DNA from: an uncultured candidate division Zixibacteria bacterium
GTDB lineage: Bacteria; Zixibacteria; MSB-5A5; UBA10806
Direction of reading: 5' to 3'
DNA: 64,000 bases
Assembly: GCA_963817915.1 (NCBI GenBank)
Contig: CAWFQL010000003.1
Coordinates: 96,001-160,000, forward strand
Each line of letters starts with the position of its first letter. Within the stretch, counting starts at the first letter, position 1. Made by a program: the position numbers and the translations under genes. Below are positions 1-29,495 of the stretch, piece by piece. The notes under the pieces are model-generated. The model had not been told where the DNA came from, did not search any database, and saw only the letters and a program-made list of their open reading frames with translations.

Positions 1-1850
1 CCTTACGATTGCTATGGATGTCATCAGACTAATTATAATATGGTCCCGGACCCAAACCACGTGCAAAATAATTTTAATCATGACTGTACGCAATGCCATA
101 ATACTTCAGCCTGGACACCGGCATCATATGATCATAGCCAAACAAGATTCCCGTTGACCGGTGCCCATGTTGGACAGACATGTGTTGCCTGTCATGCCAA
201 TGGCTATAATAACACGCCATTTGACTGCTTTAGCTGCCACACAGGTAATTATAATTCGGCTACTGATCCCAACCATGTGACCAATAATTTTGACCATGAC
301 TGTACGCGATGTCATACATACTAGGTCTGGTCGCCTTCGACATTCAGCCATGGCTCGACAAGATTCCCGTTAACCGGCGCGCATGTTCCTCTTCAATGTA
401 TTTCTTGTCACGCCAACGGATATCAGAATACACCGTTGGATTGCTACAGTTGCCATGTGGGCAATTATAATTCGGTTACCGACCCCAACCATGTGACCAA
501 TAATTTCGACCATGATTGTACCCAGTGTCATACGACATCGGTCTGGAATCCATCGACATTTAATCACAGCTCGACCAGGTTCCCCTTAACTGGCGCGCAC
601 AATACGCTGCAATGCATTTCGTGTCATGCCAACGGATACCAGAATACGCCGTTGGATTGTTACAGTTGCCATGTCGGTAATTATAATTCCGTTCCGGATC
701 CTAATCACGTTACCAATAATTTCAGCCATGATTGCACTCAATGCCATACAACTGCGGGCTGGACTCCGGCGAATTACAATCATAGTCAAACGAGATTTCC
801 GTTAACTGGGGCGCATGTAAATCTTGCCTGCGTGGCCTGCCATGCCAATGGCTATCAGAATACGCCGTTCGATTGCTATAGCTGCCATCAGAATAACTAC
901 AATGGCGTCGTCGATCCCAATCACAACACCAATAATTTCAGCCACGACTGCACAGTATGTCACACTACATCCGGATGGACACCTGTATCGTTCAATCACG
1001 GATTGACGCAATTCCCGTTAACCGGGGCGCATGTAAATCTTGCCTGTGTTGCTTGTCACGCCAATGGATACCAAAATACGCCTATGGATTGCTATAGCTG
1101 TCACCAGAGCAATTATAATGGTGTTACGGATCCTAATCATGTCACCAATAATTTCAGCCATGACTGTACTATCTGTCATACGACCACAGCCTGGAATCCT
1201 TCGACATTCAATCACGGGCAAACCCAATTCCCGTTAACCGGCGCGCATGTGAGTCTTGCCTGCATATCCTGTCACGCCAATGGGTACCAAAATACGCCTA
1301 TGGATTGCTATAGCTGTCATCAGGGCAATTATAACGGTGTTACGGATCCTAATCATGTCACCAATAATTTCAGTCACGACTGCACCGTATGTCATACTAC
1401 TTCAGCCTGGACTGCCCGCGACATTTAATCATGGCACGACCAGATTCCCGTTGACCGGTGCGCATGTAAGCCTGGCCTGTATAGCCTGCCATGCCAATGG
1501 CTATCAGAATACGCCTTTCGATTGCTATAGTTGTCATCAAAGCAATTTCAATGGTGTCGTAGATCCAAACCACGTCACCAATAATTTCAGCCATGACTGC
1601 ACCGTATGTCATTCTACTTCGGCTTGGTCGCCGGCGTCATTCAACCATAATCAAACACAGTTCCCATTGACCGGAGCGCATACTACACTGCAATGTGTCG
1701 CCTGCCACGCCAATGGATACCAAAATACCCCGACTGCTTGTGTCAGCTGCCATCAGGCCGATTATAATGGCGCCACAAATCCGAATCATACCGCTCAGGG
1801 ATTTCCCACGCAATGCCAGCAGTGTCATACAACCGCTAATTGGACGCAAT
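1..1850 (+). repeat. Intragenic tandem repeat, 216-bp period, about 8.5 copies in the window
   Basis: Equivalent Cys codons start at 10, 226, 442, 658, 874, 1090, 1306, 1523 and 1739. The period is 216 except one 217 interval that contains the frameshift. Confidence 0.95.
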
Positions 1851-2083
1851 TAACTTATAACCATAATACTCAATATTTCCCAATTACTACCGGAAGGCAT
1901 GCTACCGTTTGGTCAACCTGTGCTACCTGCCATAATATTCCTGGAAATCTTGCGCATTTCGAATGTATCCTCTGCCATGAGCACAACCGCTCTGACACAG
2001 ATTCACAGCATCAGGGTAGGTCGGGTTATCAATATCTAAGCACTGCGTGCTACGCTTGCCATCCCAGAGGCAATGCCGGTTAG
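1..2083 (+). CDS. Giant multiheme c-type cytochrome built from 72-aa three-heme tandem repeats (5' truncated; in-frame TAG at 322-324 and +1 frameshift near 1412, probably sequence errors)
   Basis: Frame +1 is open from base 1 (PYDCYGCH...). It continues in the same frame past TAG 322-324 into ORF 436..1428, then into the frame of ORF 1256..2083. I count 29 CxxCH motifs. The FPLTGAH, DPNH and F/YxH motifs recur in every unit. Confidence 0.93.
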
Positions 2084-2906: not shown

Positions 2907-4517
2907 ATGAAGGGATTATTAGTCAAAATCCTTGCAACGATAATATTCGCGCTTATTTTCCGGGTTGGAGCGTCGGCCGCTATCCATGTCCAATATCTTT
3001 CCCAGGAAGCGGTCTATATCGATGCCGGAATCGAAGACAGCCTTTCAATCGGCGATCAACTCGAGATCAGAAAAGGCGACAGCCTTATTGCTCAATTAGA
3101 AATTATCTTCGCGTCCGAGCATTCGGCTTCCTGCAAGATACTTAATTCGACAGGTACAATCGAAATCGGGGCTACCGTAAATATCACTTCAAGGGCGATC
3201 GTGGCCAAGCCGGCCCCGGCAGATTCTGTTGCGGATACGACTGCGAAAAAACTTGAGCCTGCGCCAATTGCAGTTGCGCCAAAGCCTAAGAAAAATTCTA
3301 CCCATTTCAGCGGGACTATTGCCTTGCAGACTTATAATTGGAACGATATCACTTCATCGAATCTTGATTTCTCCCAGCCGTCGGCGAGAATAAATATTAC
3401 CGCCCTGAAACTCTGGGGCACCGAGCTTTCATTTACGCTAAGATCGACCATCCGCAATGAACGAAGGACCCGCAGCTATAGCAGCTCTGTTCCCAAAAGC
3501 GAATGGCGCAATAGGGTATACCAACTTTCAATAGGGTATTCGGATGACAACGGGCCATTCGGGTTTGAATTCGGCAGAATAATCTCGAATAAAATCAGCG
3601 GTATCGGATATATAGATGGAATCCTTGTCCATCGCAGGGTGAGCAAATTGGTCAATATGGGAGTATTTGTAGGGACTCAACCCCAATGGCAATATTCCGA
3701 TTTTCAAACTTCGATCCAGAAATACGGATTTTATACTAATTACGCGCGAGGCGAATATGCCAAATCTCGTTATGAAGTGACCCTGGCGGCCGCGGGCGAA
3801 TATCATAGCAATATCGTCAGCCGTGAATTCATTTATCTTCAGAATAATCTCATTATTAAGGGCGATTGGAATATTTTTCAGAGCGCGGAATTGGATCTTA
3901 ATCGCGGATGGCGTAAAGAAAAATCGAAAATAGGCACATCTCTAACTAACTTCTACCTTTCCACCAGGAAACGAGTTACTGGCTGGCTTTCGGCGAGCCT
4001 GAGCTTTGATTCCCGTAAAAACTATTGGACCTATGAAATTCGTTCGATGGCCGAGCAGCTTTTCGATAGCAATGTCCGGCGCGGAGGCAGAGCGGATATT
4101 TCGCTGAGACTGCCTGGCAATTTCCAGCTTCTCGCGGGATTTGGCTTGCGGAAACGGGCCACGGAATCGGGCTCTACCTATTCTTATTCTGGGGCATTGA
4201 ATAAATCCAATATCCTCAATTCAAAGCTGGACATAAATATTCAGATGTCGGGATTTACCAACCCGCTTACAAACGGGTATAATGTATCCACGACTCTCGG
4301 TCGCTATTTCGGCAGGGGGAACTACCTGAGTATTGGATACAGCGGATACGTATATTCGATCCAAAATGGCGGTCCAACCCGCAGTAATACCGCATATCAG
4401 CTAAGCTCAATGATAAGCATTATCAGATCCGTATATTTTTCCGGTCAATATGAATACGACACTGGGGATGATACCAAAGGCCATCGAATAGTAGCGGAAC
4501 TCGGTTATCGTTTCTAA
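2907..4517 (+). CDS. Outer-membrane beta-barrel protein (putative porin of a porin-cytochrome conduit) with an N-terminal soluble domain and Pro/Ala/Lys linker
   Basis: ATG 2907 follows GAGAGG. Signal peptide MKGLLVKILATIIFALIFRVGASAA, alternating amphipathic strands, and C-terminal ELGYRF Bam-type signature. Starts 10 bp after the decaheme gene. Confidence 0.8.
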   Translation: MKGLLVKILATIIFALIFRVGASAAIHVQYLSQEAVYIDAGIEDSLSIGDQLEIRKGDSLIAQLEIIFASEHSASCKILNSTGTIEIGATVNITSRAIVAKPAPADSVADTTAKKLEPAPIAVAPKPKKNSTHFSGTIALQTYNWNDITSSNLDFSQPSARINITALKLWGTELSFTLRSTIRNERRTRSYSSSVPKSEWRNRVYQLSIGYSDDNGPFGFEFGRIISNKISGIGYIDGILVHRRVSKLVNMGVFVGTQPQWQYSDFQTSIQKYGFYTNYARGEYAKSRYEVTLAAAGEYHSNIVSREFIYLQNNLIIKGDWNIFQSAELDLNRGWRKEKSKIGTSLTNFYLSTRKRVTGWLSASLSFDSRKNYWTYEIRSMAEQLFDSNVRRGGRADISLRLPGNFQLLAGFGLRKRATESGSTYSYSGALNKSNILNSKLDINIQMSGFTNPLTNGYNVSTTLGRYFGRGNYLSIGYSGYVYSIQNGGPTRSNTAYQLSSMISIIRSVYFSGQYEYDTGDDTKGHRIVAELGYRF

Positions 4518-4565: not shown

Positions 4566-5900
4566 ATGGAATCAGACGCAATCTGGATATTCACGGTAAT
4601 ACTCATAGTAAGTATTTCCGCCCCATATTTTATAAAATTTCGCAAACGCCAGAAAATGGATATCGAACGGCGGAAAGAGGCGGAAATCTTGGGCATCAGC
4701 AAGCCTTCCAGCCAATATCCGATGATCGACTCCACTCTCTGTATTGGCTGCCGCACCTGTGTCGATGCTTGTCCCGAGCATGATGTGCTCGGTATCGTAT
4801 TCGGCAAGGCAATGGTTATAAACGGCCAGCGTTGTGTTGGACATGGCTACTGCGAACTCGTGTGTCCTGTTGGAGCATTGAAAGTGGGACTCGGCGATAT
4901 CAAAACTCGTCCCGATATTCCAGTCGTAGATGACAATAACCAATCCAATATTCCGGGCCTTTTTATCGCCGGTGAATTGGCCGGTCTTTCGTTGATCAGA
5001 AATGCTATAGATCAGGGAAGACGGGTTATAGAAAAAATAGCCGAAAATAATAATCGCTCAGCCAATGAAAATATTTACGATGTCATAATAATTGGAGCTG
5101 GTCCGGCGGGGCTTACTGCCTCACTTAATGCGATCAAAAACAAACTTTCTTACCTTCTAATCGACCAGCAGGCTCCGGGTGGTACGATTCTTCAATATCC
5201 CCGACATAAATTGGTAATGACCCAGCCTGTGGAAATTCCCCTTTATGGCTGGCTCAAGAAAGAAGAGTATGCCAAGGAAGACCTGCTGGATATATGGAAT
5301 AAAATATTGAATGACTTCAAGATCAATGTTCGAGTGGGTGAGAAGATCGAATCTGTCAGAAAAGAAGCGGAAGTATTCAAGGTTAAATCGCTTGCGGCCG
5401 AGTATTCCGCAAATCATGTGGTGTTATCGATGGGTCGCCGGGGCACTCCCCGAAAACTTGGCGTAACCGGTGAAGATCTTCCCAAGACTCTCTATCAGCT
5501 GCTCGACGCGCAATCGTATAATAACAATCATATTCTTGTTGTGGGCGGCGGCGATAGCGCTATCGAAGCGGCAGTTGGTCTTGCGCATCAGACCGGAAAT
5601 AAAATCACGATTTCTTATAGAAAAAGCACATTTGCCCGTGTTAAGAAGAAAAATGAAGATCTTGTCAAAAAAGCTATCGCTGAAAAGAAAGTCAGAGCTA
5701 TTTTCAATTCGGAAGTTCTCGAAATCAGAGATAAGAATGTCAAACTAAAAGTAGGAGAAGACATAGTCGAAATACTCAACGATTTTGTCTTCGTGTTTAT
5801 CGGCGGCGAGCCTCCTATCAAAATGCTTAAGGAGATGGGCATATTATTCGGCGGCGAAGCGCCGGTTATCGAAGTTCCGCCTGTCCCGGCAATGTCTTAA
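4566..5900 (+). CDS. Membrane-anchored ferredoxin fused to an FAD/NAD(P)H oxidoreductase of thioredoxin-reductase fold
   Basis: N-terminal TM helix. Ferredoxin motifs CIGCRTCVDACP and CVGHGYCELVCP. Flavoenzyme motifs IPGLFIAGE, DVIIIGAGPAG, VVGGGDSA and SYRK. Confidence 0.88.
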   Translation: MESDAIWIFTVILIVSISAPYFIKFRKRQKMDIERRKEAEILGISKPSSQYPMIDSTLCIGCRTCVDACPEHDVLGIVFGKAMVINGQRCVGHGYCELVCPVGALKVGLGDIKTRPDIPVVDDNNQSNIPGLFIAGELAGLSLIRNAIDQGRRVIEKIAENNNRSANENIYDVIIIGAGPAGLTASLNAIKNKLSYLLIDQQAPGGTILQYPRHKLVMTQPVEIPLYGWLKKEEYAKEDLLDIWNKILNDFKINVRVGEKIESVRKEAEVFKVKSLAAEYSANHVVLSMGRRGTPRKLGVTGEDLPKTLYQLLDAQSYNNNHILVVGGGDSAIEAAVGLAHQTGNKITISYRKSTFARVKKKNEDLVKKAIAEKKVRAIFNSEVLEIRDKNVKLKVGEDIVEILNDFVFVFIGGEPPIKMLKEMGILFGGEAPVIEVPPVPAMS

Positions 5901-5968: not shown

Positions 5969-8900
5969 TTACTTCAACAATAACATCTTGTTGGTTTTGG
6001 TGAAATTAGCGGTTTCGATTTTGTAGAAATAAAGCCCGGTCGCGACTTTTCGGCCCGATTCATCCTTGCCATCCCAAACAACCTGCTTATAGCCGGCAGC
6101 CTGTCTTTGATCCACAAGGTTTTTCACCTTCTGACCCATAATATTGAATACTACAATTCTCACTTCGGAATCGACCGCGAGCCCATAAGAAATCGTGGTT
6201 GAAGGATTGAATGGGTTCGGATAGTTTTGCGATAGGAAGAACTTCTTCGGAGCGGTGATATCATCGTTCAACCCTGTGATTGTCAGCGCCTTTCCAGAGC
6301 CGGCGGTTGATCCGAATGATTCGGCGGTTAGATTTCCTTCGGAGAATAGAGCGCTAACGTAATACCAATAAAGATTAGTATCGGCAAGATCAATATCCGA
6401 ATAGCTCGTTGCCTGAATCGGAGAATCGTTCAGCTTCGAAAAATCACCATTGGGCCAACGGCTTCTGTAAATATTAAATCCGGCGAGATTAGGATTCGTT
6501 AATGTATCCCAGCGAACCTCGATTAAATTAGAAATATTGTTCGATGCTGAAAGACTGGATGGTATCGGGCATCGAGTGAGATGTAATGTCTCCGTCTCGA
6601 TAAGCTGGTTGGCTACCACCTGGATACTTTCCTGATAGGCAGGGTAATATCCAAGGGCTTCGGCGGTGAGGCTTATTGTTCCGGGCGGTACTTCTTTAAT
6701 AAAGAACCTGCCATCGCTGGCTGAAATTCTCCTTTGACCTGTGCTCGCATGAATTTGAGCGTCGCCATTCTGGCCGCTTCCATCAAGATCGACACTTCCC
6801 CTTACTGAGCCGCGTCCGGTACTGGTGGTAATCAGCGTGACTGCGCCGTCAATCAAGGTCGCTCCTCCCGGAGCGTAATAATTGTCGTGCGTAAATTCCA
6901 GCCCGCGTTGTTCATCGTAGCTCTCGAATCCTACGGACGCGTAACCCTCTCCAGAGTCGGTGTTATTAACATCTCTGTAAATAAAAAGGATATCGGAATC
7001 GCCTGTAAGGCTCGGATAATAGGCTGGATCCATAATAACCATCTGGAATGTTTCGTACTGGAAGGTATTCGTATTGGTTAATTTCAACCACTCTATATAA
7101 AATTTATGGTTCACCGAATCATACCATTTGTAAACACCTAAGTGCGTTCCGTCAATTCTGAGATCATCCCAGAACGGCGAAATCTGTCCGCGCGCGTTAC
7201 CCGGGTCAGGAATTGGCCAATTGAAGAAGTTGGCCCAGTAATTTCCCTGCATATCCATTGGAGTAGTATCCAACGCTGCGAAACCATTGATACAAACTAT
7301 CATCGCCCCGTAATCTTGGCCATAATACTTCATGTTGAATGGCAATGTCACGAGAACCGATTTGTCATCCAACTCGGATCCATAATTCAAACGAGTACCC
7401 TGCCCGCCGCTATCCGGGCTGATTTCAACCCATTGATAAGTCGGCATCATTGCGTATGCGCTGTCCATACGATCATACATGTAATAGCCATAGGAATCCG
7501 GCCCAACCGGGTCCCTTGACGAAATTCGTCCAACTGTTAGTGTAAATGGAATCGATGACTTTGAACCCGAAAGGGTTGATATATGAAGAGTCAGATTTAA
7601 TTTTTTGCCCTTAAAGGCAGTCGAATCGCATGTGATACTGACGAGAGAACTGGAATTGTCGCCGGAGCCGCCGATTGAAATATCACCGAAATTGGCAATT
7701 GATCCAACGGCATTCGCATAATCATCATCGGTTGTCACAATACCGGTAACACCCTGGGCATTAAGCGATCCGCTATTGGATAAAAATATCTTGAGATTGG
7801 CTGTTTGACCCGGACCGATAAGGCTGTCACCCTCGGGGATTATAGCTCTGGTGACTGCGAATTTTGGAGCCTTTACCGGGAATTCGATCATAGTTTGCCA
7901 GCTGTCATTATTTTGGTCTCTGATTGTCAATTTCTGCCTGACAGTTTGACCATCGGAAGCGGCGGGATTTACATATACCACAAATGGCGCTTCTGATGCT
8001 CTCGATTCGCCCGGCGCCAGATTGCCGTAATTGCGAATACCGTCATAGACAACAGAATTCCCATCGGTTGATTCCAACTGCGCGGATACATTCGTAGCTG
8101 AAATATCCGTACCGAAATTCTTGATTGAGACATTTAATTCGATTGTCTCGCCAGGCGCGGCTAAATGATCGCCGTCTCCGTGAGAAAAGCCGTCGGTATC
8201 ATCATCGATATAAATGGAGTCCAATCCTACTGCCAGATCGGATGTCGCTATTTCCACATTGGTTTGGTAAGGAATAAGATTTTGTCCGGAAACGGTAAGC
8301 TTCATTGAGCCGGGAGTATTGGCGTCAAATATTAGCGTGACATTTCCCGATTCATCGGTTTTATCGACACTGAATACTTCTTCGGTTGTCCCAATAGTTT
8401 TGATCAATGTCACATATGCGCCTGAAATCGCGTTGCCCGCTGAATCTATCACTGAAGCATTAAAGCTGTTTGTTCCCAGTGCCACAGTATCGAGATGTGT
8501 AACGTTTATGCTTATTGGAATTTTAGTGCGTAATTCAAGTTCAGGATCGCCCAGCATATTATATGTATTGAAATATTGTTGTATCATTCCTCCCGGGGCG
8601 GTCTGTCTTGGGAATGTCCAGTAATCCTGAAGCTTTCCTCTCACTGCCGCGGCGGCAAAATGATAGACATTCTCTTCAAATATCCCGAAGAAATAGCCGA
8701 CCATAATGGGGTTATTCCATCTGGTATGGGTGTCGTGATCGGAAACCCCATAAAACGCCGGTCCGCCTTTCAAGCTATCAGGACTACGTCCCATTCTAAT
8801 CCAGGTCTCGCCAAAACATTCACCGCCGAAATCACCGGTGCCGCAAGTCAATGGAGACAGAACGCCAAGTTTTTGATTGTCCTGTAAATTGAGCAAATCG

Positions 8901-10285
8901 TAACTCGTCATCGATGGGCCGGCCCAGCCGTCAGTTCCTCCAGCCCCGCGATATTGAATAAAACCGATTCCAGCGTTGAAAAGAGAAGGCAGCCTCCAGC
9001 CGGAATCGAATACGGTGTCAACTCGGACAAAACCATGCCTGAGCTGAAGCTGACGGACCCAGAGAGTAGTCAATCTTGACGATTCATAATACACATAAGC
9101 CACCGAGAGCCCTCTGATCCAATGCTCCGGATCGCGCATGAGCGGATACTTTTCATACTTGAGAATCTTTGAAAGTGCCACTCTGGCCTGGGACATAGAG
9201 TCTACCGACATGCGAGCGATAAAGATATCCGGGATATAATCCGAACCATCTACGCACGCGTATTTATTATCGGACGCGTAAATGTTGCTTCCGACAATAT
9301 AGGGATAATCCGGCACGACAAACATATGATCGCGATCACCGACTATCATAACATACTCCGGAGGAATCTCCCAGGAAGCGTAAGCTGTGTCAAGAAAGGC
9401 CTTTATCTGTTCCTTACTTGGAGACCCGGTTGGTCTAATTTCGGTTGTAGGAACAATTCTGACCGGATACCCCTTTTGATGCTTCCATTGAGCCACTGCT
9501 TTTACAGTATCAACCAGTGTCGGTCTGCATATTATAACGTATCCCCCGCGCTTAACTTCAACATTATCCATTGCCTGGTCGAAATTGGCGAACATAGCCT
9601 TATAAATTGGATAAAATCCCTCGGATAGATATCTATGATGGACTGTCTTGGGATTGATTACTTCGCCATCATAGCTGATATCAACAGAAATGTCCCGGTA
9701 TACGCGCAATACCTTTTGAACAGGATTATACTGCGCCGGATAGAGTGCAATCCGCACAAAACGAACATCGCGCATAATCTGCGGATCGGAAGCCTCCGCA
9801 AGATTGCCGGGATAAAACGCATCTCTTGCGTAAGTCTGCAGGTCAATTGTGAATGGTACGGCTGACGCACCGGGAGTTTCCGAAGGGGATGGCTGAACCG
9901 GGGCAAGTTCGATATTCGGCAAATCATCATAACCGGAATATGTGACTGTCAATCTTACTCCTGCCTGGTCGGGGATGATTATGTTGGCTGTCAACGCTGG
10001 AAGATCGGGCTTACCATCTTCAGCCAATTCGCTTGGCGTAATAAATTCGCCAACCGGCAGGTCAAGTTTCTTATAATTGCTGCCGCCAAGAGAAATATCG
10101 TTTAGTGCCACAGCCGGCAAATTCAAATTCAACGAGGTTTTGGAACCCAAGTTCCTCACCTCTAATTTCGACGATTCCGCCGAAATATCTGATAGAACGC
10201 GGATGTTTTGAGAGGATAATGACTGCGAAATCATTAAAAACAGCAGAAACACAGTCAAGATGCACGCTTTAGCCTTGATACTCAT
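5969..10285 (-). CDS. Large secreted C25 (gingipain-like) peptidase-family protein with propeptide, Ig/FN3-like domains and C-terminal FlgD/T9SS-type sorting domain
   Basis: ATG 10285 with GGAGG SD and a signal peptide. Motifs WKHQKG, YVMIVGD, DYIPDIFIARMS and YNMLGDPEL. C-terminus LSQNYPNPFNPSTTISY...WDGKD...GLYFYK. Confidence 0.88.
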   Translation of the reverse strand: MSIKAKACILTVFLLFLMISQSLSSQNIRVLSDISAESSKLEVRNLGSKTSLNLNLPAVALNDISLGGSNYKKLDLPVGEFITPSELAEDGKPDLPALTANIIIPDQAGVRLTVTYSGYDDLPNIELAPVQPSPSETPGASAVPFTIDLQTYARDAFYPGNLAEASDPQIMRDVRFVRIALYPAQYNPVQKVLRVYRDISVDISYDGEVINPKTVHHRYLSEGFYPIYKAMFANFDQAMDNVEVKRGGYVIICRPTLVDTVKAVAQWKHQKGYPVRIVPTTEIRPTGSPSKEQIKAFLDTAYASWEIPPEYVMIVGDRDHMFVVPDYPYIVGSNIYASDNKYACVDGSDYIPDIFIARMSVDSMSQARVALSKILKYEKYPLMRDPEHWIRGLSVAYVYYESSRLTTLWVRQLQLRHGFVRVDTVFDSGWRLPSLFNAGIGFIQYRGAGGTDGWAGPSMTSYDLLNLQDNQKLGVLSPLTCGTGDFGGECFGETWIRMGRSPDSLKGGPAFYGVSDHDTHTRWNNPIMVGYFFGIFEENVYHFAAAAVRGKLQDYWTFPRQTAPGGMIQQYFNTYNMLGDPELELRTKIPISINVTHLDTVALGTNSFNASVIDSAGNAISGAYVTLIKTIGTTEEVFSVDKTDESGNVTLIFDANTPGSMKLTVSGQNLIPYQTNVEIATSDLAVGLDSIYIDDDTDGFSHGDGDHLAAPGETIELNVSIKNFGTDISATNVSAQLESTDGNSVVYDGIRNYGNLAPGESRASEAPFVVYVNPAASDGQTVRQKLTIRDQNNDSWQTMIEFPVKAPKFAVTRAIIPEGDSLIGPGQTANLKIFLSNSGSLNAQGVTGIVTTDDDYANAVGSIANFGDISIGGSGDNSSSLVSITCDSTAFKGKKLNLTLHISTLSGSKSSIPFTLTVGRISSRDPVGPDSYGYYMYDRMDSAYAMMPTYQWVEISPDSGGQGTRLNYGSELDDKSVLVTLPFNMKYYGQDYGAMIVCINGFAALDTTPMDMQGNYWANFFNWPIPDPGNARGQISPFWDDLRIDGTHLGVYKWYDSVNHKFYIEWLKLTNTNTFQYETFQMVIMDPAYYPSLTGDSDILFIYRDVNNTDSGEGYASVGFESYDEQRGLEFTHDNYYAPGGATLIDGAVTLITTSTGRGSVRGSVDLDGSGQNGDAQIHASTGQRRISASDGRFFIKEVPPGTISLTAEALGYYPAYQESIQVVANQLIETETLHLTRCPIPSSLSASNNISNLIEVRWDTLTNPNLAGFNIYRSRWPNGDFSKLNDSPIQATSYSDIDLADTNLYWYYVSALFSEGNLTAESFGSTAGSGKALTITGLNDDITAPKKFFLSQNYPNPFNPSTTISYGLAVDSEVRIVVFNIMGQKVKNLVDQRQAAGYKQVVWDGKDESGRKVATGLYFYKIETANFTKTNKMLLLK

Positions 10286-10658
10286 TTGACCTCCACTAAG
10301 CCTTAAAAAAATAAACATAAACATATCCCATAATTTTAGGCGAGAATATCCCCCCAGCGATTTCTCGTTTACCAATGGATTAAACAACTTAATCCGCTTG
10401 GCTCGTTCCACTAATATAATCGATAATTTTTTACTTAGTAAATTATGTCATTGAAATTTTGATTTAAATTGGGAAATTCTCAAAATTTGCAACCCCATTT
10501 TTGAGACTATTATTGAGTGGGCCGCCCACGTTAACCTGATGAATATTTTGCGGTTATGGAAATTATTGGCGGTTCATTTAATGCGGTGATAATTATACGA
10601 AATAGAAATGGGGCGAATAATGTTCGCCCCGAATTACTCCGACTATTGAAAAATCAGA

Positions 10659-16100: not shown

Positions 16101-17219
16101 CTACTGTGCGGTGTTGACAACATTATCATGGCATTGACGGCATCCGGCTGTTCTCATTTCCTCTGAGTTGTCCGCTGGATTCCATCTCATACCAAATGCG
16201 TTGGTGGAGCCGTGCGCCTGATGGCACGAGAGGCAAAAGACCTCGTTATTATAAGCTACCTGGGATGCTGCATTGAAATCATGCGCTTCCCTGACCAGGA
16301 ATGGCATACGTCCAACTGAAAATTCCGAGCCCTGACCATTATACCAATTTGTACTATCGGCTGTGTAAACCGGATCGCCGGGTAAGCCGCTAATCGGGCG
16401 ATATGCGCCATATTCGGTATTCGAGACTGGATGGCGGTTCCAATGGAAATCGAGATCGGGGTTTGTATATCGTCCACCATTTGTACCAGCATCCAATAAT
16501 GTGTGATGGCAATCGATACAGATATTGGTTACCTCACGCCAGGTTGGTTCGCCACCTGCATCGCCGGGCTCGCCGTACTTTACATTATCCTGCTGATATT
16601 TCTGAAGGCCTGTCGCGCCGGGATTCACAAATGCGACAATCGGAGGCTCGCCGCCGGGCCATGATGCCCATTGCAGATTGCGATAATAACCGGTGCCGTG
16701 AGGAGCATGACAATCAACGCAATCAACAGTTGCGGTCCTGAATTCTCCTCCAAAATGACATCTCAGACAAAGGTCGCCTGGAGCAGTCCCAATATTATGG
16801 CCATTGTCGTTGATAGCGCCGGGATCGCCGAATTGTCCCGCGGCCCGAAGGGTGCCGCCGTTGACATCGGAGCCCACAACGTCAGGGACATTAACTTTGT
16901 CTTGATGACAATTAAGACACAATGCCAACGCGCTCGTGGCTTTCAAAAGCTTGTTTGTCGGCGGTTCCATGACAAATGGATAAGTGAAGGGGTCCTGATA
17001 GCCATAATTATGCTGCATCGAGCCATGCATGACATGGCAATCGGAACAGACCAGGTCGGCGCCATTATGATAGCCGGGCGAAAATGGCGGCGTATCGAGA
17101 AGCATCCCGGGATTATGTCCGCCGCTTCCGGGTCTATGAATATCAATACCGTCCATCGGTCCGCCCGCCAACGCTACGGCGCTGACCAGGAAGAAAACAA
17201 CTGTGATGAGTTTACCCAT
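16101..17219 (-). CDS. Secreted OmcS-like multiheme cytochrome c with 7 CxxCH motifs
   Basis: AAGGAAGG SD and signal peptide ending AVALA. Motifs YHNG..VCSDCHVMHGS, LCLNCHQ, GHNI, CLRCH, CVDCHAPHG..YR, CIDCH...RHP, VFCLSCHQAHGS and GCRQCH. Confidence 0.88.
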   Translation of the reverse strand: MGKLITVVFFLVSAVALAGGPMDGIDIHRPGSGGHNPGMLLDTPPFSPGYHNGADLVCSDCHVMHGSMQHNYGYQDPFTYPFVMEPPTNKLLKATSALALCLNCHQDKVNVPDVVGSDVNGGTLRAAGQFGDPGAINDNGHNIGTAPGDLCLRCHFGGEFRTATVDCVDCHAPHGTGYYRNLQWASWPGGEPPIVAFVNPGATGLQKYQQDNVKYGEPGDAGGEPTWREVTNICIDCHHTLLDAGTNGGRYTNPDLDFHWNRHPVSNTEYGAYRPISGLPGDPVYTADSTNWYNGQGSEFSVGRMPFLVREAHDFNAASQVAYNNEVFCLSCHQAHGSTNAFGMRWNPADNSEEMRTAGCRQCHDNVVNTAQ

Positions 17220-17357
17220 ACCCATACCTTCCTTATCCGGAAATTTATTGGAAAAGAAATCCTTATTCTTCAACCAATTAATTATCATTATCTTTTCCCC
17301 ATCAAATACATGCTATCAAAAAAGCCGCAATATCCTAAGCTTGCCCTTTTGCCCCGT

Positions 17358-27040: not shown

Positions 27041-29495
27041 ATGCCACTCGAATCTGAGAAAATACTACCAGTCTATATCGAAGATGAAATGAAATCTTCC
27101 TATATCGACTACTCCATGTCGGTCATCACCAACCGCGCTTTGCCTGATGTCCGCGATGGTTTGAAGCCGTCCAATCGGCGCATCATGGTCGCTATGAACG
27201 ATCTCAATCTAGCGCCCAATCGTCCCCACAGGAAATGCGCCAAGATCGCGGGCGATACGTCGGGCAACTACCATCCCCATGGCGAACAGGTTGTCTATCC
27301 GACATTGGTGAGAATGGCGCAGGATTTCAATATGCGCTACCTGCTGGTCGATGGCCAGGGCAACTTCGGCTCTATCGATGGTGACTCGGCGGCGGCGATG
27401 AGGTACACCGAGGCCCGTCTGACCCCGATGTCGATGGAGATGATTACCGATCTCGAAAAAAATACCGTCAATATGATCCCCAACTACGACGAGACCCGCG
27501 AAGAGCCAACTGTACTACCGTCGAAATTCCCGAATCTGATTTGCAATGGCTCATCCGGTATCGCGGTCGGTATGGCGACCAATATCCCCCCCCATAATCT
27601 AACTGAGGCTGTCGAGGCGCTATGCGCGCTGATCGATACTCCCGAAATGTCTGTCATGGATGTCCTGAATTATATTAAGGGCCCGGATTTTCCGACCGGC
27701 GGATTGATTTTCGGTATTTCCGGTATGAAGCAAGGATATTTGACCGGCCGGGGTAGATTTTATGTCAGAGCCAGGGCCAATGTCGAGGTCCAGAAGAACG
27801 GCCGCGAAAGCATTATTGTCAGTGAAATCCCATATCAGATCAATAAATCGAATCTTCTGGAAAAGATCGCCGAATTAGTGCGCGATAAGCGGCTTGAAGG
27901 TATTTCCGACCTGCGCGATGAATCCGATCGCGACGGTATGAGGATCGTAATCGAGCTCAAGAAAGATATCCAGGCTGATATAGTTTTGAATCAGCTTTTC
28001 AAGCTTACCCAAATGCAAGCGACATTCGGAATGATTACCCTGGCGTTGGTCAAGGGTCAGCCGCGTGTTTTGAATATCAAAGAGCTTCTACAGAATTTCA
28101 TAGACCATCGCCATGAAGTGGTCGAACGGCGCACCCGTTTCGATCTAGCCGAGGCCGAGAAGCGCGCTCATATACTCGAAGGTTACAAAATCGCATTAGA
28201 TAATCTCGATGCCGTTATTGCTCTTATCAGAAAATCGAAAGACCCGGCCGAGGCCAAAGATTGGCCTTGTAACCAGATTCAAACTATCCGAAATCCAGGC
28301 CCAGGCGATTCTGGATCTCCGTTTGCAGAGACTAACCGGCCTCGAACGCGATAAGATTATCGAAGAATACGAAGCCACCATAAAGTTAATCGCCGAGCTC
28401 AATGAGATACTAGCGTCCAAACAGCGCCGTATGCAGATTATCAAAGACGAACTCAATGATATGAAAGAAAAATTCGGCGATGCCCGCCGTTCGGTGATAA
28501 TTGAAGAAGATATCGATGATGATTTCACAATTGAAGATTTAATCGCCGAAGAGGATATGATAGTCACGATCTCCCATGCGGGGTATATCAAACGGCTTTC
28601 AATATCTGCTTACAAGAAGCAATCGCGCGGCACCAAGGGCGTTATCGGCATGGAAACAAAGGAAGAGGATTTCGTGGAGCATATGTTTGTGGCATCCACT
28701 CATAACTATATCCTTTTCTTCACTCGCCGCGGCAAATGCTACTGGTTGAAAGTCCACGAGATTCCACAGGGCGGAAGGCTCGCCAAGGGAAAAGCGATTA
28801 TCAATTTAATAGGCATTGATAAGGATGACACTATTACCGCCTTCGTGCCAGTCAAAAATTTCGAAGCCGGCGGATTTATAACGCTGGCCACTCAAACCGG
28901 ACAGATCAAGAAGACCGAGCTTTCCGCATTCTCCAACCCCCGCCGCGATGGCATTATCGCGGTCACACTGCCCGAAGACGATTTCTTGATCGGCGCGGAG
29001 CTTTCCGATGGCAATTGCGATATAATCCTGGCCACTCGCCGGGGACAGGCGATAAGATTCCCCGAAAACACTGTCCGGGCCATGGGCCGAACCGCTTACG
29101 GAGTTCGAGGCATAACTCTCGAAGAAGGCGACTATGCTATCGGTATGGTTGTTGTCAAGAGGGAGTCAACCTTGCTGACAGTCTGCGAAAATGGCCACGG
29201 GAAAAGATCCGATATCGCCGATTACCGAATAACCAATAGAGGCGGCAAAGGGGTTATCAATATCAGAGTGTCCGAGCGAAATGGTGAAGTAGTCGCTGTC
29301 AAAGAAGTTGTCGATGACGACGAGCTTCTCTTAATCACCCAACGAGGCATAGTCAATCGTCTTGCGATCAGTTCGATCCGTTCCATAAGCAGGGCAACCC
29401 AGGGAGTCCGCCTGATGGGCCTCGATTCCGGCGATAAGGTAATCGATGTTGCCCGTGTACCGGCCGGCGAGAAATTGGGCGATAACGGCGAATAA
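27041..29495 (+). CDS. gyrA: DNA gyrase subunit A; frameshift near 28257
   Basis: [17 protein letters not shown], catalytic AAMRYTE, GyrA-box-like QSRGTKG and C-terminal pinwheel repeats. An extra A in GCCAAAGATT splits the ORF. Confidence 0.96.

What the first reader, a model, noticed from the sequence alone, without database searches (positions are those of the whole stretch)
1..2083. Length-tunable heme wire: 72-aa, three-heme module repeated at least 8.5 times
Seen: an exact 216-bp period. Each unit has 3 CxxCH plus three invariant extra His (PNH, F/YxH, GAH), which matches the count needed for bis-His ligation of every heme. The repeat is Asn/Thr-rich and almost free of Lys and Glu. Adjacent units are nearly identical at DNA level (about 1054-1157 versus 1270-1373). 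Inference: recent unequal-crossover expansion gives a linear single-polypeptide wire whose length scales with repeat number, for example to span the periplasm or a surface layer.
Basis: partly seen in the sequence, partly recalled or inferred. Interest (0 to 1): 0.85.

Follow-up and report, generated by a model that had tools for sequence, protein, structure and literature searches.

The report
Variable-length heme wire plugging a barrel
This gene encodes a real 61-heme cytochrome built from a repeated three-heme block; it belongs to a widespread, untested variant of the "PCC3" electron cable across the bacterial envelope, in which this one part varies from 10 to about 80 hemes between species while its partner cytochrome stays at 20.

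Summary
The repeat is real. The gene starts 2.4 kb before the window and holds 61 CxxCH: a 6-heme N-cap, 17 three-heme modules and a 4-heme C-cap. Here it carries three frameshifts and a stop, most likely assembly errors: dnaK, recA, gyrA and both EF-Tu genes are broken too, and a relative has an intact 58-heme frame. Expansion is lineage-specific but mostly old (units 70% identical). The gene sits in a cluster with a di-heme-b membrane protein, a 20-heme cytochrome, a 10-heme paralogue, an outer-membrane barrel and an Fe-S/FAD NAD(P)H oxidoreductase. The membrane protein, 20-heme cytochrome and barrel are homologous to proteobacterial PCC3 parts; the long repeat differs. Relatives follow a 10+3n heme rule (10-79), while the partner stays at 20. 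A complex model puts the paralogue's N-cap inside the barrel (score 0.76, best control 0.00). Best reading: a surface-projecting single-chain wire of a PCC3-type conduit; location, shape and function are unshown. Repeat-built wires of variable length are already in print for PCC3, and this scan met this family before on other DNA.

The parts
1..1777 (+). Core array of 72-aa three-heme modules of the giant cytochrome (eight whole units from 49 to 1777); in-frame TAG at 322-324 and a frameshift near 1414, both probably sequencing errors. The gene begins upstream of the window (L001:13580 = C3:93580) with a signal peptide, a 6-heme N-cap and further modules. Also upstream and part of the cluster: the five-helix, predicted di-heme-b membrane protein (L001:11104-11838, true start unclear) and the 583-aa, 20-heme, Lys-rich cytochrome (L001:11826-13577).
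   Evidence: upstream partners are 25-28% and 32-35% identical to the Gallionellaceae PCC3-type membrane protein and periplasmic cytochrome; the partner has exactly 20 hemes in 27 of 27 whole frames
1778..2083 (+). 100-aa, 4-heme C-terminal cap and stop codon; no sorting domain after the last heme
   Evidence: the same cap in relatives; median tail after the last CxxCH is 6 aa
2093..2896 (+). 267-aa, 10-heme paralogue: N-cap plus C-cap with no module between (the n = 0 form)
   Evidence: (39% identity to the giant's N-cap); modelled inside the barrel
2907..4517 (+). 536-aa predicted outer-membrane beta-barrel (about 22 strands by my reading of the sequence; a crude scan found 25 amphipathic segments) with a small N-terminal domain; remote homologue of the PCC3 porin
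   Evidence: no Pfam or NCBIfam family; hhalign probability 96.6, E 5.8e-10 over 386 columns to the Gallionella/Methylomonas porin
4566..5900 (+). 444-aa membrane-anchored oxidoreductase: N-terminal helix, 4Fe-4S dicluster domain, FAD/NAD(P) thioredoxin-reductase-like domain
   Evidence: Pfam Pyr_redox_3 E 7e-44 and Fer4 families; present in 33 of 34 phylum loci and 12 of 12 Gallionellaceae regions that hold the membrane protein

Best explanation
The gene encodes one exported polypeptide of about 1490 aa with 61 c-type hemes, probably all bis-His. It is the outer-membrane-threading, outward-projecting cytochrome of a PCC3-type trans-envelope electron conduit. Proposed chain: cytoplasmic NAD(P)H/FAD/4Fe-4S protein and/or quinone pool, di-heme-b membrane protein, fixed-length 20-heme periplasmic cytochrome, the N-cap of the giant (or of the 10-heme paralogue) held in the barrel lumen, then the module array beyond the barrel, ending in the C-cap. 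Module number changes by in-frame gain and loss of whole 216-nt units, giving 10+3n hemes. SHOWN from sequence: anatomy, gene cluster, 10+3n rule, fixed versus variable partner, homology to PCC3 parts. MODELLED: N-cap inside the barrel, tested with the paralogue only. INFERRED: that the breaks are errors, bis-His ligation, rod shape (up to 50-60 nm at about 1 nm per heme), outward orientation, and the role of the flavoprotein. The direction of electron flow and the outside partner are unknown; discharge of electrons to solid or polymeric acceptors is my guess.
For: Breaks as errors: dnaK is in 3 pieces, recA and both EF-Tu copies are split, gyrA is split inside this window, and 14 frameshift bins turn up in 80 kb of comparable coding DNA. 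Same-family genome G008 has an intact 1445-aa, 58-heme frame. Codon-position identity 79/81/48% shows purifying selection. Cluster: same genes in relatives; full-length barrel match (E < 1e-100) in 40 of 121 genomes of the phylum, my count. PCC3 link: all membrane-protein motifs of PMC5566968 are met; barrel hhalign E 5.8e-10, and the barrel profile's only hit in each of two Gallionella genomes is that porin. An HMM of the 72-aa unit finds 6-8 copies in 15 of 15 PCC3 periplasmic cytochromes, exactly one N-terminal copy in 18 of 20 barrel-side cytochromes, and none in 37 shuffled controls. Length: 10+3n in 61 of 66, 96 of 106 and 25 of 29 complete proteins, against exactly 20 hemes in 27 of 27 whole partner frames. 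Counts differ between close genomes: 73 vs 67 at 90% barrel identity, 58 vs 55 at 87%. Complex model: score 0.76, best of 3 controls 0.00; that mark was reached by 116 of 157 solved and 2 of 215 mismatched pairs, counts that hold only roughly with my own alignments. Runs agree in at least 71% of contacts and partner pLDDT is at least 71. Contacts are alternating residues on strands all round the barrel and partner residues 59-183, none in the last three hemes. The genome has cytochrome c maturation genes.
Against: No reads were available to prove the breaks are errors. Four breaks in 4.5 kb is denser than the rough background of about one bin per 6 kb, and the other five cluster genes show none (apart from the unclear start of the membrane protein). 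No export signal for the surface: lipobox-like motif in only 9 of 210 proteins and no C-terminal sorting domain. The complex was modelled with the 10-heme paralogue (39% identical N-cap), not the giant, and the 20-heme protein was not tested as a rival plug. Barrel-plus-heme-chain complexes such as MtrAB are solved, so the pass may partly reflect likeness. Contact residues of the cytochrome are not better conserved than its other residues (0.45 vs 0.52). Orientation rests on my by-eye strand assignment. The repeat model is of low confidence. No PCC3 system has been tested functionally (10.1101/2025.02.27.639646, passages), and the extracellular cytochrome Slit_1448 scored 0 in every column of the table in PMC11429942.
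Confidence: 0.62

Rival explanations
1. Same complex, opposite placement: only the N-cap sits in the barrel, and the long array stays in the periplasm as an electron store or lateral wire.
For: Matured in the periplasm, with an ordinary signal peptide (Gln just before the N-cap in 154 of 210 proteins), few lipoboxes and no sorting tail. The module is the one that builds PCC3 periplasmic cytochromes. A capacitor role is proposed for PCC3 cytochromes (PMC9900912, passages) and for GSU1996 (PMC10138318, passages).
Against: Free variation from 10 to 79 hemes beside an invariant 20-heme partner. Lys-poor, Asn/Thr-rich make-up like the barrel-side PCC3 cytochromes (Lys 2-6%) and unlike the periplasmic ones (9-20%). 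In the model most partner contacts lie after residue 95, and most barrel contacts are on long loops and strand halves that I read as extracellular.
Confidence: 0.2
2. The conduit is not respiratory. It is a ferric-reductase/NOX-like machine that spends NAD(P)H on reducing outside Fe(III) or other oxidants for uptake, detoxification or redox balance.
For: The membrane protein has the two HX13H motifs of ferric-reductase domains (PMC5566968 passages). One remote homologue is annotated 'iron reductase'. A cytoplasmic NAD(P)H flavoprotein is almost always adjacent. Carriers include cultured Bacteroidota that I recall as ordinary aerobic heterotrophs (Emticicia, Aequorivita, Hanstruepera).
Against: About 90 hemes per cluster is a very large iron cost for iron uptake (inference). 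I saw no iron-transport gene next to the cluster here or on the annotated Emticicia plasmid; regulators were not searched.
Confidence: 0.2
3. The breaks are real: the giant gene has recently decayed in this strain and the intact 10-heme paralogue serves the barrel.
For: Four breaks in one gene while its neighbours are intact. A complete short paralogue follows directly.
Against: Essential genes are broken in the same way across the assembly. Another large repeat gene on C18 is also in four pieces. All 61 CxxCH motifs are intact.
Confidence: 0.08
4. The repeat number is an assembly artefact.
For: The assembly is error-prone, and no sequencing run was available to check it.
Against: Units differ by 19-41% and share at most 35 identical bases in a row, so they cannot be collapsed or duplicated copies. 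Relatives have intact frames of similar length.
Confidence: 0.02

Closest known systems
PCC3 porin-cytochrome c cluster (PMC5566968; Gallionellaceae survey PMC9900912)
   Same: Membrane protein with the same motifs, a roughly 21-heme periplasmic cytochrome, a large repeat-built cytochrome of variable heme number (10-35 in Gallionellaceae; up to 85 reported), and a porin. About 24.5 aa per heme (reported range 22-39). Proposed there as molecular wires.
   Different: Described from Proteobacteria. Here the barrel-side cytochrome reiterates the three-heme module along its whole length (10+3n), whereas the Gallionellaceae and Methylomonas ones carry one copy followed by another repeat. The barrel is about 540 aa rather than 750-780 aa, with 16% identity. 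A 10-heme paralogue is added. The Fe-S/FAD flavoprotein is conserved in both forms but is not named as a PCC3 part in the passages I read.
Geobacter single-chain 'nanowires of hemes' GSU1996 (PDB 3OV0, 12 hemes) and GSU2210 (27 hemes) (PMC10138318)
   Same: One polypeptide made of concatenated three-heme domains with a linear heme chain; weak Pfam Cytochrome_C7 match.
   Different: Each GSU1996 domain has one His/Met heme; this unit has no conserved Met. No PDB hit for the repeat by sequence or fold. Only a weak 67-residue match from the 10-heme profile (E 1.7e-7). Not barrel-linked in the passages read.
MtrAB/MtrCAB of Shewanella (PDB 6R2Q)
   Same: Works like it in the model: a heme chain threaded through a beta-barrel.
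   Different: No sequence match of the barrel to solved structures or to any Pfam/NCBIfam family. Foldseek match of the repeat to the Mtr complex is at chance level (E 2.6). The plug and the outer extension would be one chain.
Variable-length large cytochromes of Burkholderiales and Anaerolineales (PMC7399161)
   Same: [quoted passage not shown]
   Different: No module or rule is defined in the sections read; different lineages.

Membership tests
PCC3 cluster | [quoted passage not shown] | tested here: met
PCC3 cluster | Membrane protein with five helices, SGXXG on helix 4, WX3HX13H on helices 3 and 5 | tested here: met
   definition read; test
PCC3 cluster | Periplasmic cytochrome homologous to the 21-27-heme PCC3 type | tested here: met
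   32-35% identity, E 1e-62 to 1e-80. The references are Gallionella, Gallionellaceae and Methylomonas loci that I take as PCC3 from gene order and the 21/24/27 counts of PMC9900912 Table 1; the type strain's sequences were not fetched by name.
PCC3 cluster | Porin homologous to the PCC3 porin | tested here: met
   Remote only: hhalign probability 96.6, E 5.8e-10, 16% identity, against a template of three sequences; sole hit in two of three genomes, E 0.009
PCC3 cluster | Low-complexity, repeat-built large cytochrome with 22-39 aa per heme | tested here: met
   about 1494 aa for 61 hemes; composition
PCC3 extracellular cytochrome family (proteobacterial type) | Same repeat along the body of the protein | tested here: not met
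   Only the first three-heme module is shared (18 of 20); spacings of mostly 22-36 aa against 25/32/15 here
PCC3 cluster | Outer location of the large cytochrome and electron transfer across the envelope | not testable with these tools
   Only a model of the paralogue in the barrel
c7-domain polymers (GSU1996/GSU2210) | One His/Met heme per three-heme domain | tested here: not met
   No conserved Met in 367 units; three conserved extra His
c7-domain polymers (GSU1996/GSU2210) | c7 fold of each domain | tested here: inconclusive
   Pfam C7 passes on the whole-protein score with no single significant stretch; no fold match, but the model is of low confidence
MtrAB/MtoAB | MtrB-family barrel and DmsE/MtrA-family decaheme | tested here: not met
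   the 10-heme protein has no NCBIfam match

The most novel reading that the evidence does not exclude
A five-part cable that runs from cytoplasmic NAD(P)H to the outside without needing the quinone pool. Its last element is a single polypeptide that both plugs the barrel and reaches tens of nanometres beyond the cell. Its reach evolves in three-heme steps (10 to about 80 hemes), and this lineage keeps a short (10) and a long (61) plug for the same barrel. With no lipobox or sorting tail, the folded rod might be exported through its own barrel. About a third of genomes in this phylum, and many Bacteroidota, Ignavibacteria and Calditrichota, would then be electroactive by this route.
Probability: 0.25. 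Interest if true: 0.85.

Novelty: new variant of a known kind. Interest (0 to 1): 0.55.

Why it matters
PCC3-type conduits are proposed but untested. This variant is common outside Proteobacteria (barrel profile: 1175 clusters at 50% identity with E up to 1e-30; 40 of 121 genomes of this phylum) and its barrel has no named family in Pfam or NCBIfam, so marker-based surveys of electroactive microbes may miss it. It supplies a natural length series of one heme-wire design, a minimal 10-heme form modelled in its barrel, and cultured carriers, one with the whole cluster on a plasmid. That makes two open questions testable: how conduction scales with the length of a single-chain heme wire, and whether NAD(P)H can be wired directly to the cell exterior.

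Tried and rejected
Sequencing runs: none was listed, so the breaks and expression could not be checked; no RNA holder listed. PDB by sequence: no hit for the repeat, none for the 25-row barrel profile, only two chance-level hits for the 139-row profile. Fold searches with the repeat model: nothing at E up to 0.001 in Foldseek, nothing at Z of 2 or more in VIA-align; the model is weak, so this does not show a new fold. AlphaFold of the barrel as a single sequence failed (pLDDT 30). ESM Atlas gave only c7/c3-named clusters at low recognition for the repeat, and unnamed clusters for the barrel. Promoter and terminator scan: counts near chance. My first frameshift screen by overlapping ORFs was too unspecific and was not used. 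The 20-heme tally is inflated by cross-hits and was not used. Strict motif scans for maturation genes and oxidase found nothing; family searches found both. Rejected: recent wholesale expansion, c7-polymer membership, MtrAB membership, artefactual repeat count. Supplements not seen: Figure S1 and the body of Table S4 of PMC5566968, which show PCC3 repeats and member lists and may bear on novelty; file 1 of PMC11475568, which may list these clusters; bioRxiv supplements.

Full report
Observation. The window opens inside a long repeat. Tandem Repeats Finder gives period 216, with CxxCH motifs at 96/45/75-nt spacing. The genome shows the gene starting 2420 bases before the window with a signal peptide and ending at 2083. 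It has 61 CxxCH in about 1494 codons: a 6-heme N-cap, 17 three-heme modules (15 of 216/217 nt) and a 4-heme C-cap. The three extra His are conserved at 100, 96 and 98% in 367 exactly spaced units from 120 homologues; a fourth His is at 44%; no Met is conserved. The 12 unbroken units have 13.7% Asn, 12.3% Thr and no Lys or Glu.

I read these as assembly errors. dnaK lies in three frames, recA and both EF-Tu copies are split, and gyrA is split at window 27041-29495. Proteins from related loci reveal 14 frameshift bins in 80 kb. A same-family genome has an intact 1445-aa, 58-heme frame at 72-76% identity. Against this, four breaks in 4.5 kb exceed that rough rate, and no sequencing run was listed to settle it.

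Context. The order is membrane protein (L001:11104-11838), 20-heme cytochrome (L001:11826-13577), giant, 10-heme paralogue, 536-aa barrel, Fe-S/FAD oxidoreductase. The organism is probably a Zixibacterium: the best titled locus is a Zixibacteria MAG (72%), and an unrelated gene of that locus matches this genome at 73-83%; this is inference. Of 33 non-proteobacterial titled loci, the barrel is in 26, the flavoprotein in 24 and the membrane protein in 22; most misses are at contig ends. In 121 genomes of the phylum, 40 have a full-length barrel match (my count at E < 1e-100; the tool's 56 includes weak hits). For the 33 of these not fetched earlier I read 34 regions: flavoprotein in 33, membrane protein in 28. 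The cluster, with a cytochrome c maturation gene, is also on plasmid pEMTOL02 of Emticicia oligotrophica.

Length rule. Proteins with both caps follow 10+3n hemes: 61 of 66 among the 120 best long homologues (37-79 hemes), 96 of 106 among the 120 best short ones, and 25 of 29 in the phylum sample. I set aside 54 and 14 proteins that failed the cap patterns; of those 54, only 25 fit the rule. The three sets overlap and are not independent. The neighbouring cytochrome has exactly 20 hemes in 27 of 27 whole frames (two more are cut or split), while the barrel-side one runs from 10 to 73. Within genera: 52-58, 55-70, 28/46, 25/28, 67/73, but 28/28/28 in one; counts differ at 87-90% barrel identity. 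In trees of units, the special N-terminal modules group by position across genomes (one such group at 100/99), and core units group by genome far more than shuffles. The 12 core units of this genome form one side of a branch at 86/77, which is not strong support. So arrays are rebuilt within lineages, mostly long ago, with local recent exchange.

Link to PCC3. PMC5566968 (passages and section 15 read; Figure S1 and Table S4 body not readable) defines PCC3 in Proteobacteria: porin, periplasmic and extracellular cytochromes with repeats and up to 85 hemes, proposed as wires, and a five-helix membrane protein with SGXXG and two WX3HX13H. Our membrane protein meets each motif. Gallionella, Gallionellaceae and Methylomonas loci (15 regions from 13 of the 21 positive genomes) hold homologues of the membrane protein (25-28%), the 20-heme protein (32-35%) and the flavoprotein (37-42%; 12 of 12 regions with the membrane protein); the one Methylomonas locus shows only the cytochromes and porin. 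Their porin is a remote homologue of our barrel (hhalign 96.6%, E 5.8e-10). An HMM of our unit finds 6-8 copies in 15 of 15 periplasmic cytochromes and one N-terminal copy in 18 of 20 barrel-side ones; the two misses look like downstream fragments, and 37 shuffled controls give none. The module is thus the shared PCC3 building block, and this variant uses it for the whole barrel-side protein.

Structure. AlphaFold on 4.5 modules gave a repeating pattern with pLDDT 63.7 and pTM 0.33 and no fold match; geometry could not be measured. The complex of barrel and 10-heme paralogue scored 0.76 against a best control of 0.00. That mark was reached by 116 of 157 solved and 2 of 215 mismatched pairs (roughly valid here); runs agree in at least 71% of contacts and partner pLDDT is at least 71. 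Contacts run round the barrel strands on alternating residues and cover partner residues 59-183, leaving heme 1 and the last three hemes free. That places the N-cap in the lumen. Most barrel contacts fall on long loops and strand halves that I read as extracellular, which points the array outward; this is my inference. Caveats: the paralogue was tested, not the giant (39% identity); solved barrel-cytochrome complexes could bias the model; the cytochrome's contact residues are not more conserved than the rest (0.45 vs 0.52), though the barrel's are (0.49 vs 0.40).

Mechanism. Electrons pass between the cytoplasmic side (flavoprotein and/or quinone) and two b hemes, then along the 20-heme protein, through the N-cap in the barrel and along the array. 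At about 1 nm per heme (MtrA: ten hemes, about 100 A, as quoted in PMC5566968), 20 hemes fit a periplasm and 61 do not. A fixed partner beside a free-length one fits an inside and an outside element. How the folded rod would be exported is unexplained: few lipoboxes and no sorting tail. The periplasmic-store reading therefore stays open, as does a non-respiratory, ferric-reductase-like role.

What is known. Variable heme number and linear models are in print for PCC3 (PMC9900912, passages and Table 1) and for other large cytochromes (PMC7399161, sections 18 and 21). Single-chain triheme polymers are solved for GSU1996 (PMC10138318, passages). PCC3 function is untested (10.1101/2025.02.27.639646 and PMC11429942, passages). 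Ten searches listed no paper whose title, abstract start or opened passages describe this variant, the 10+3n rule or the flavoprotein as a PCC3 part. Most listed papers were seen only as listings, and the library lacks most subscription journals. Also opened, as passages only and without bearing on the point: PMC13013709, PMC13322032, PMC11492766, PMC3903129, 10.1101/2025.05.29.656830; PMC11475568 was read in two of three parts. Earlier notes of this scan describe the same family and flavoprotein on other DNA; I saw them after stating my reading, and they are not independent evidence.

Verdict. Real feature; new variant of a known but untested kind. This copy is long but not a record. Interest 0.55.

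Noticed in passing
window 27041-29495: gyrA is split into two overlapping frames; with dnaK, recA and both EF-Tu genes this marks the assembly as indel-prone, so other 'split gene' findings in this genome deserve suspicion.
   Followed up: yes
G000 C17:236075-254000: A second giant cytochrome (1039 aa, 42 CxxCH at mostly 23/25-aa spacing, intact frame) in a cluster with several 5-13-heme cytochromes; a different repeat from the one studied.
   Followed up: partly
window 16101-17288 (-): 395-aa, 7-CxxCH cytochrome with Pfam Paired_CXXCH_1.
   Followed up: no
window 5969-10411 (-): 1480-aa secreted peptidase of family C25 (gingipain-like) converging on the cluster's last gene.
   Followed up: no
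G000 C18:32474-41784: Very large secreted protein made of roughly 100-aa Ig/cadherin-like repeats (my reading), broken into four overlapping frames.
   Followed up: no
L062:4199-17074: A locus titled Candidatus Opimibacter iunctus has three giant cytochromes in tandem (46, 60 and 61 hemes) before one barrel; L044, L045 and L064 also have more than one.
   Followed up: no
L036:6198-17996 (plasmid pEMTOL02): The whole cluster (40-heme form) lies on a plasmid of cultured Emticicia oligotrophica next to ccsA, suggesting transfer as a self-sufficient unit.
   Followed up: partly
L032:595-3431: In G012, two genes that look like a type II secretion/type IV pilus ATPase and platform protein (my reading, untested) lie beside the cluster; a possible export route, seen in this locus only.
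   Followed up: no
G000 C17:42275-53339: A small multiheme gene resembling ActA of alternative complex III (recalled likeness) lies about 10 kb from a heme-copper oxidase subunit I gene, so the organism may also respire oxygen.
   Followed up: no
L034:6478-8328: In G027 the barrel-side cytochrome grows by reiterating a 77-aa unit derived from the C-cap instead of the 72-aa module.
   Followed up: no
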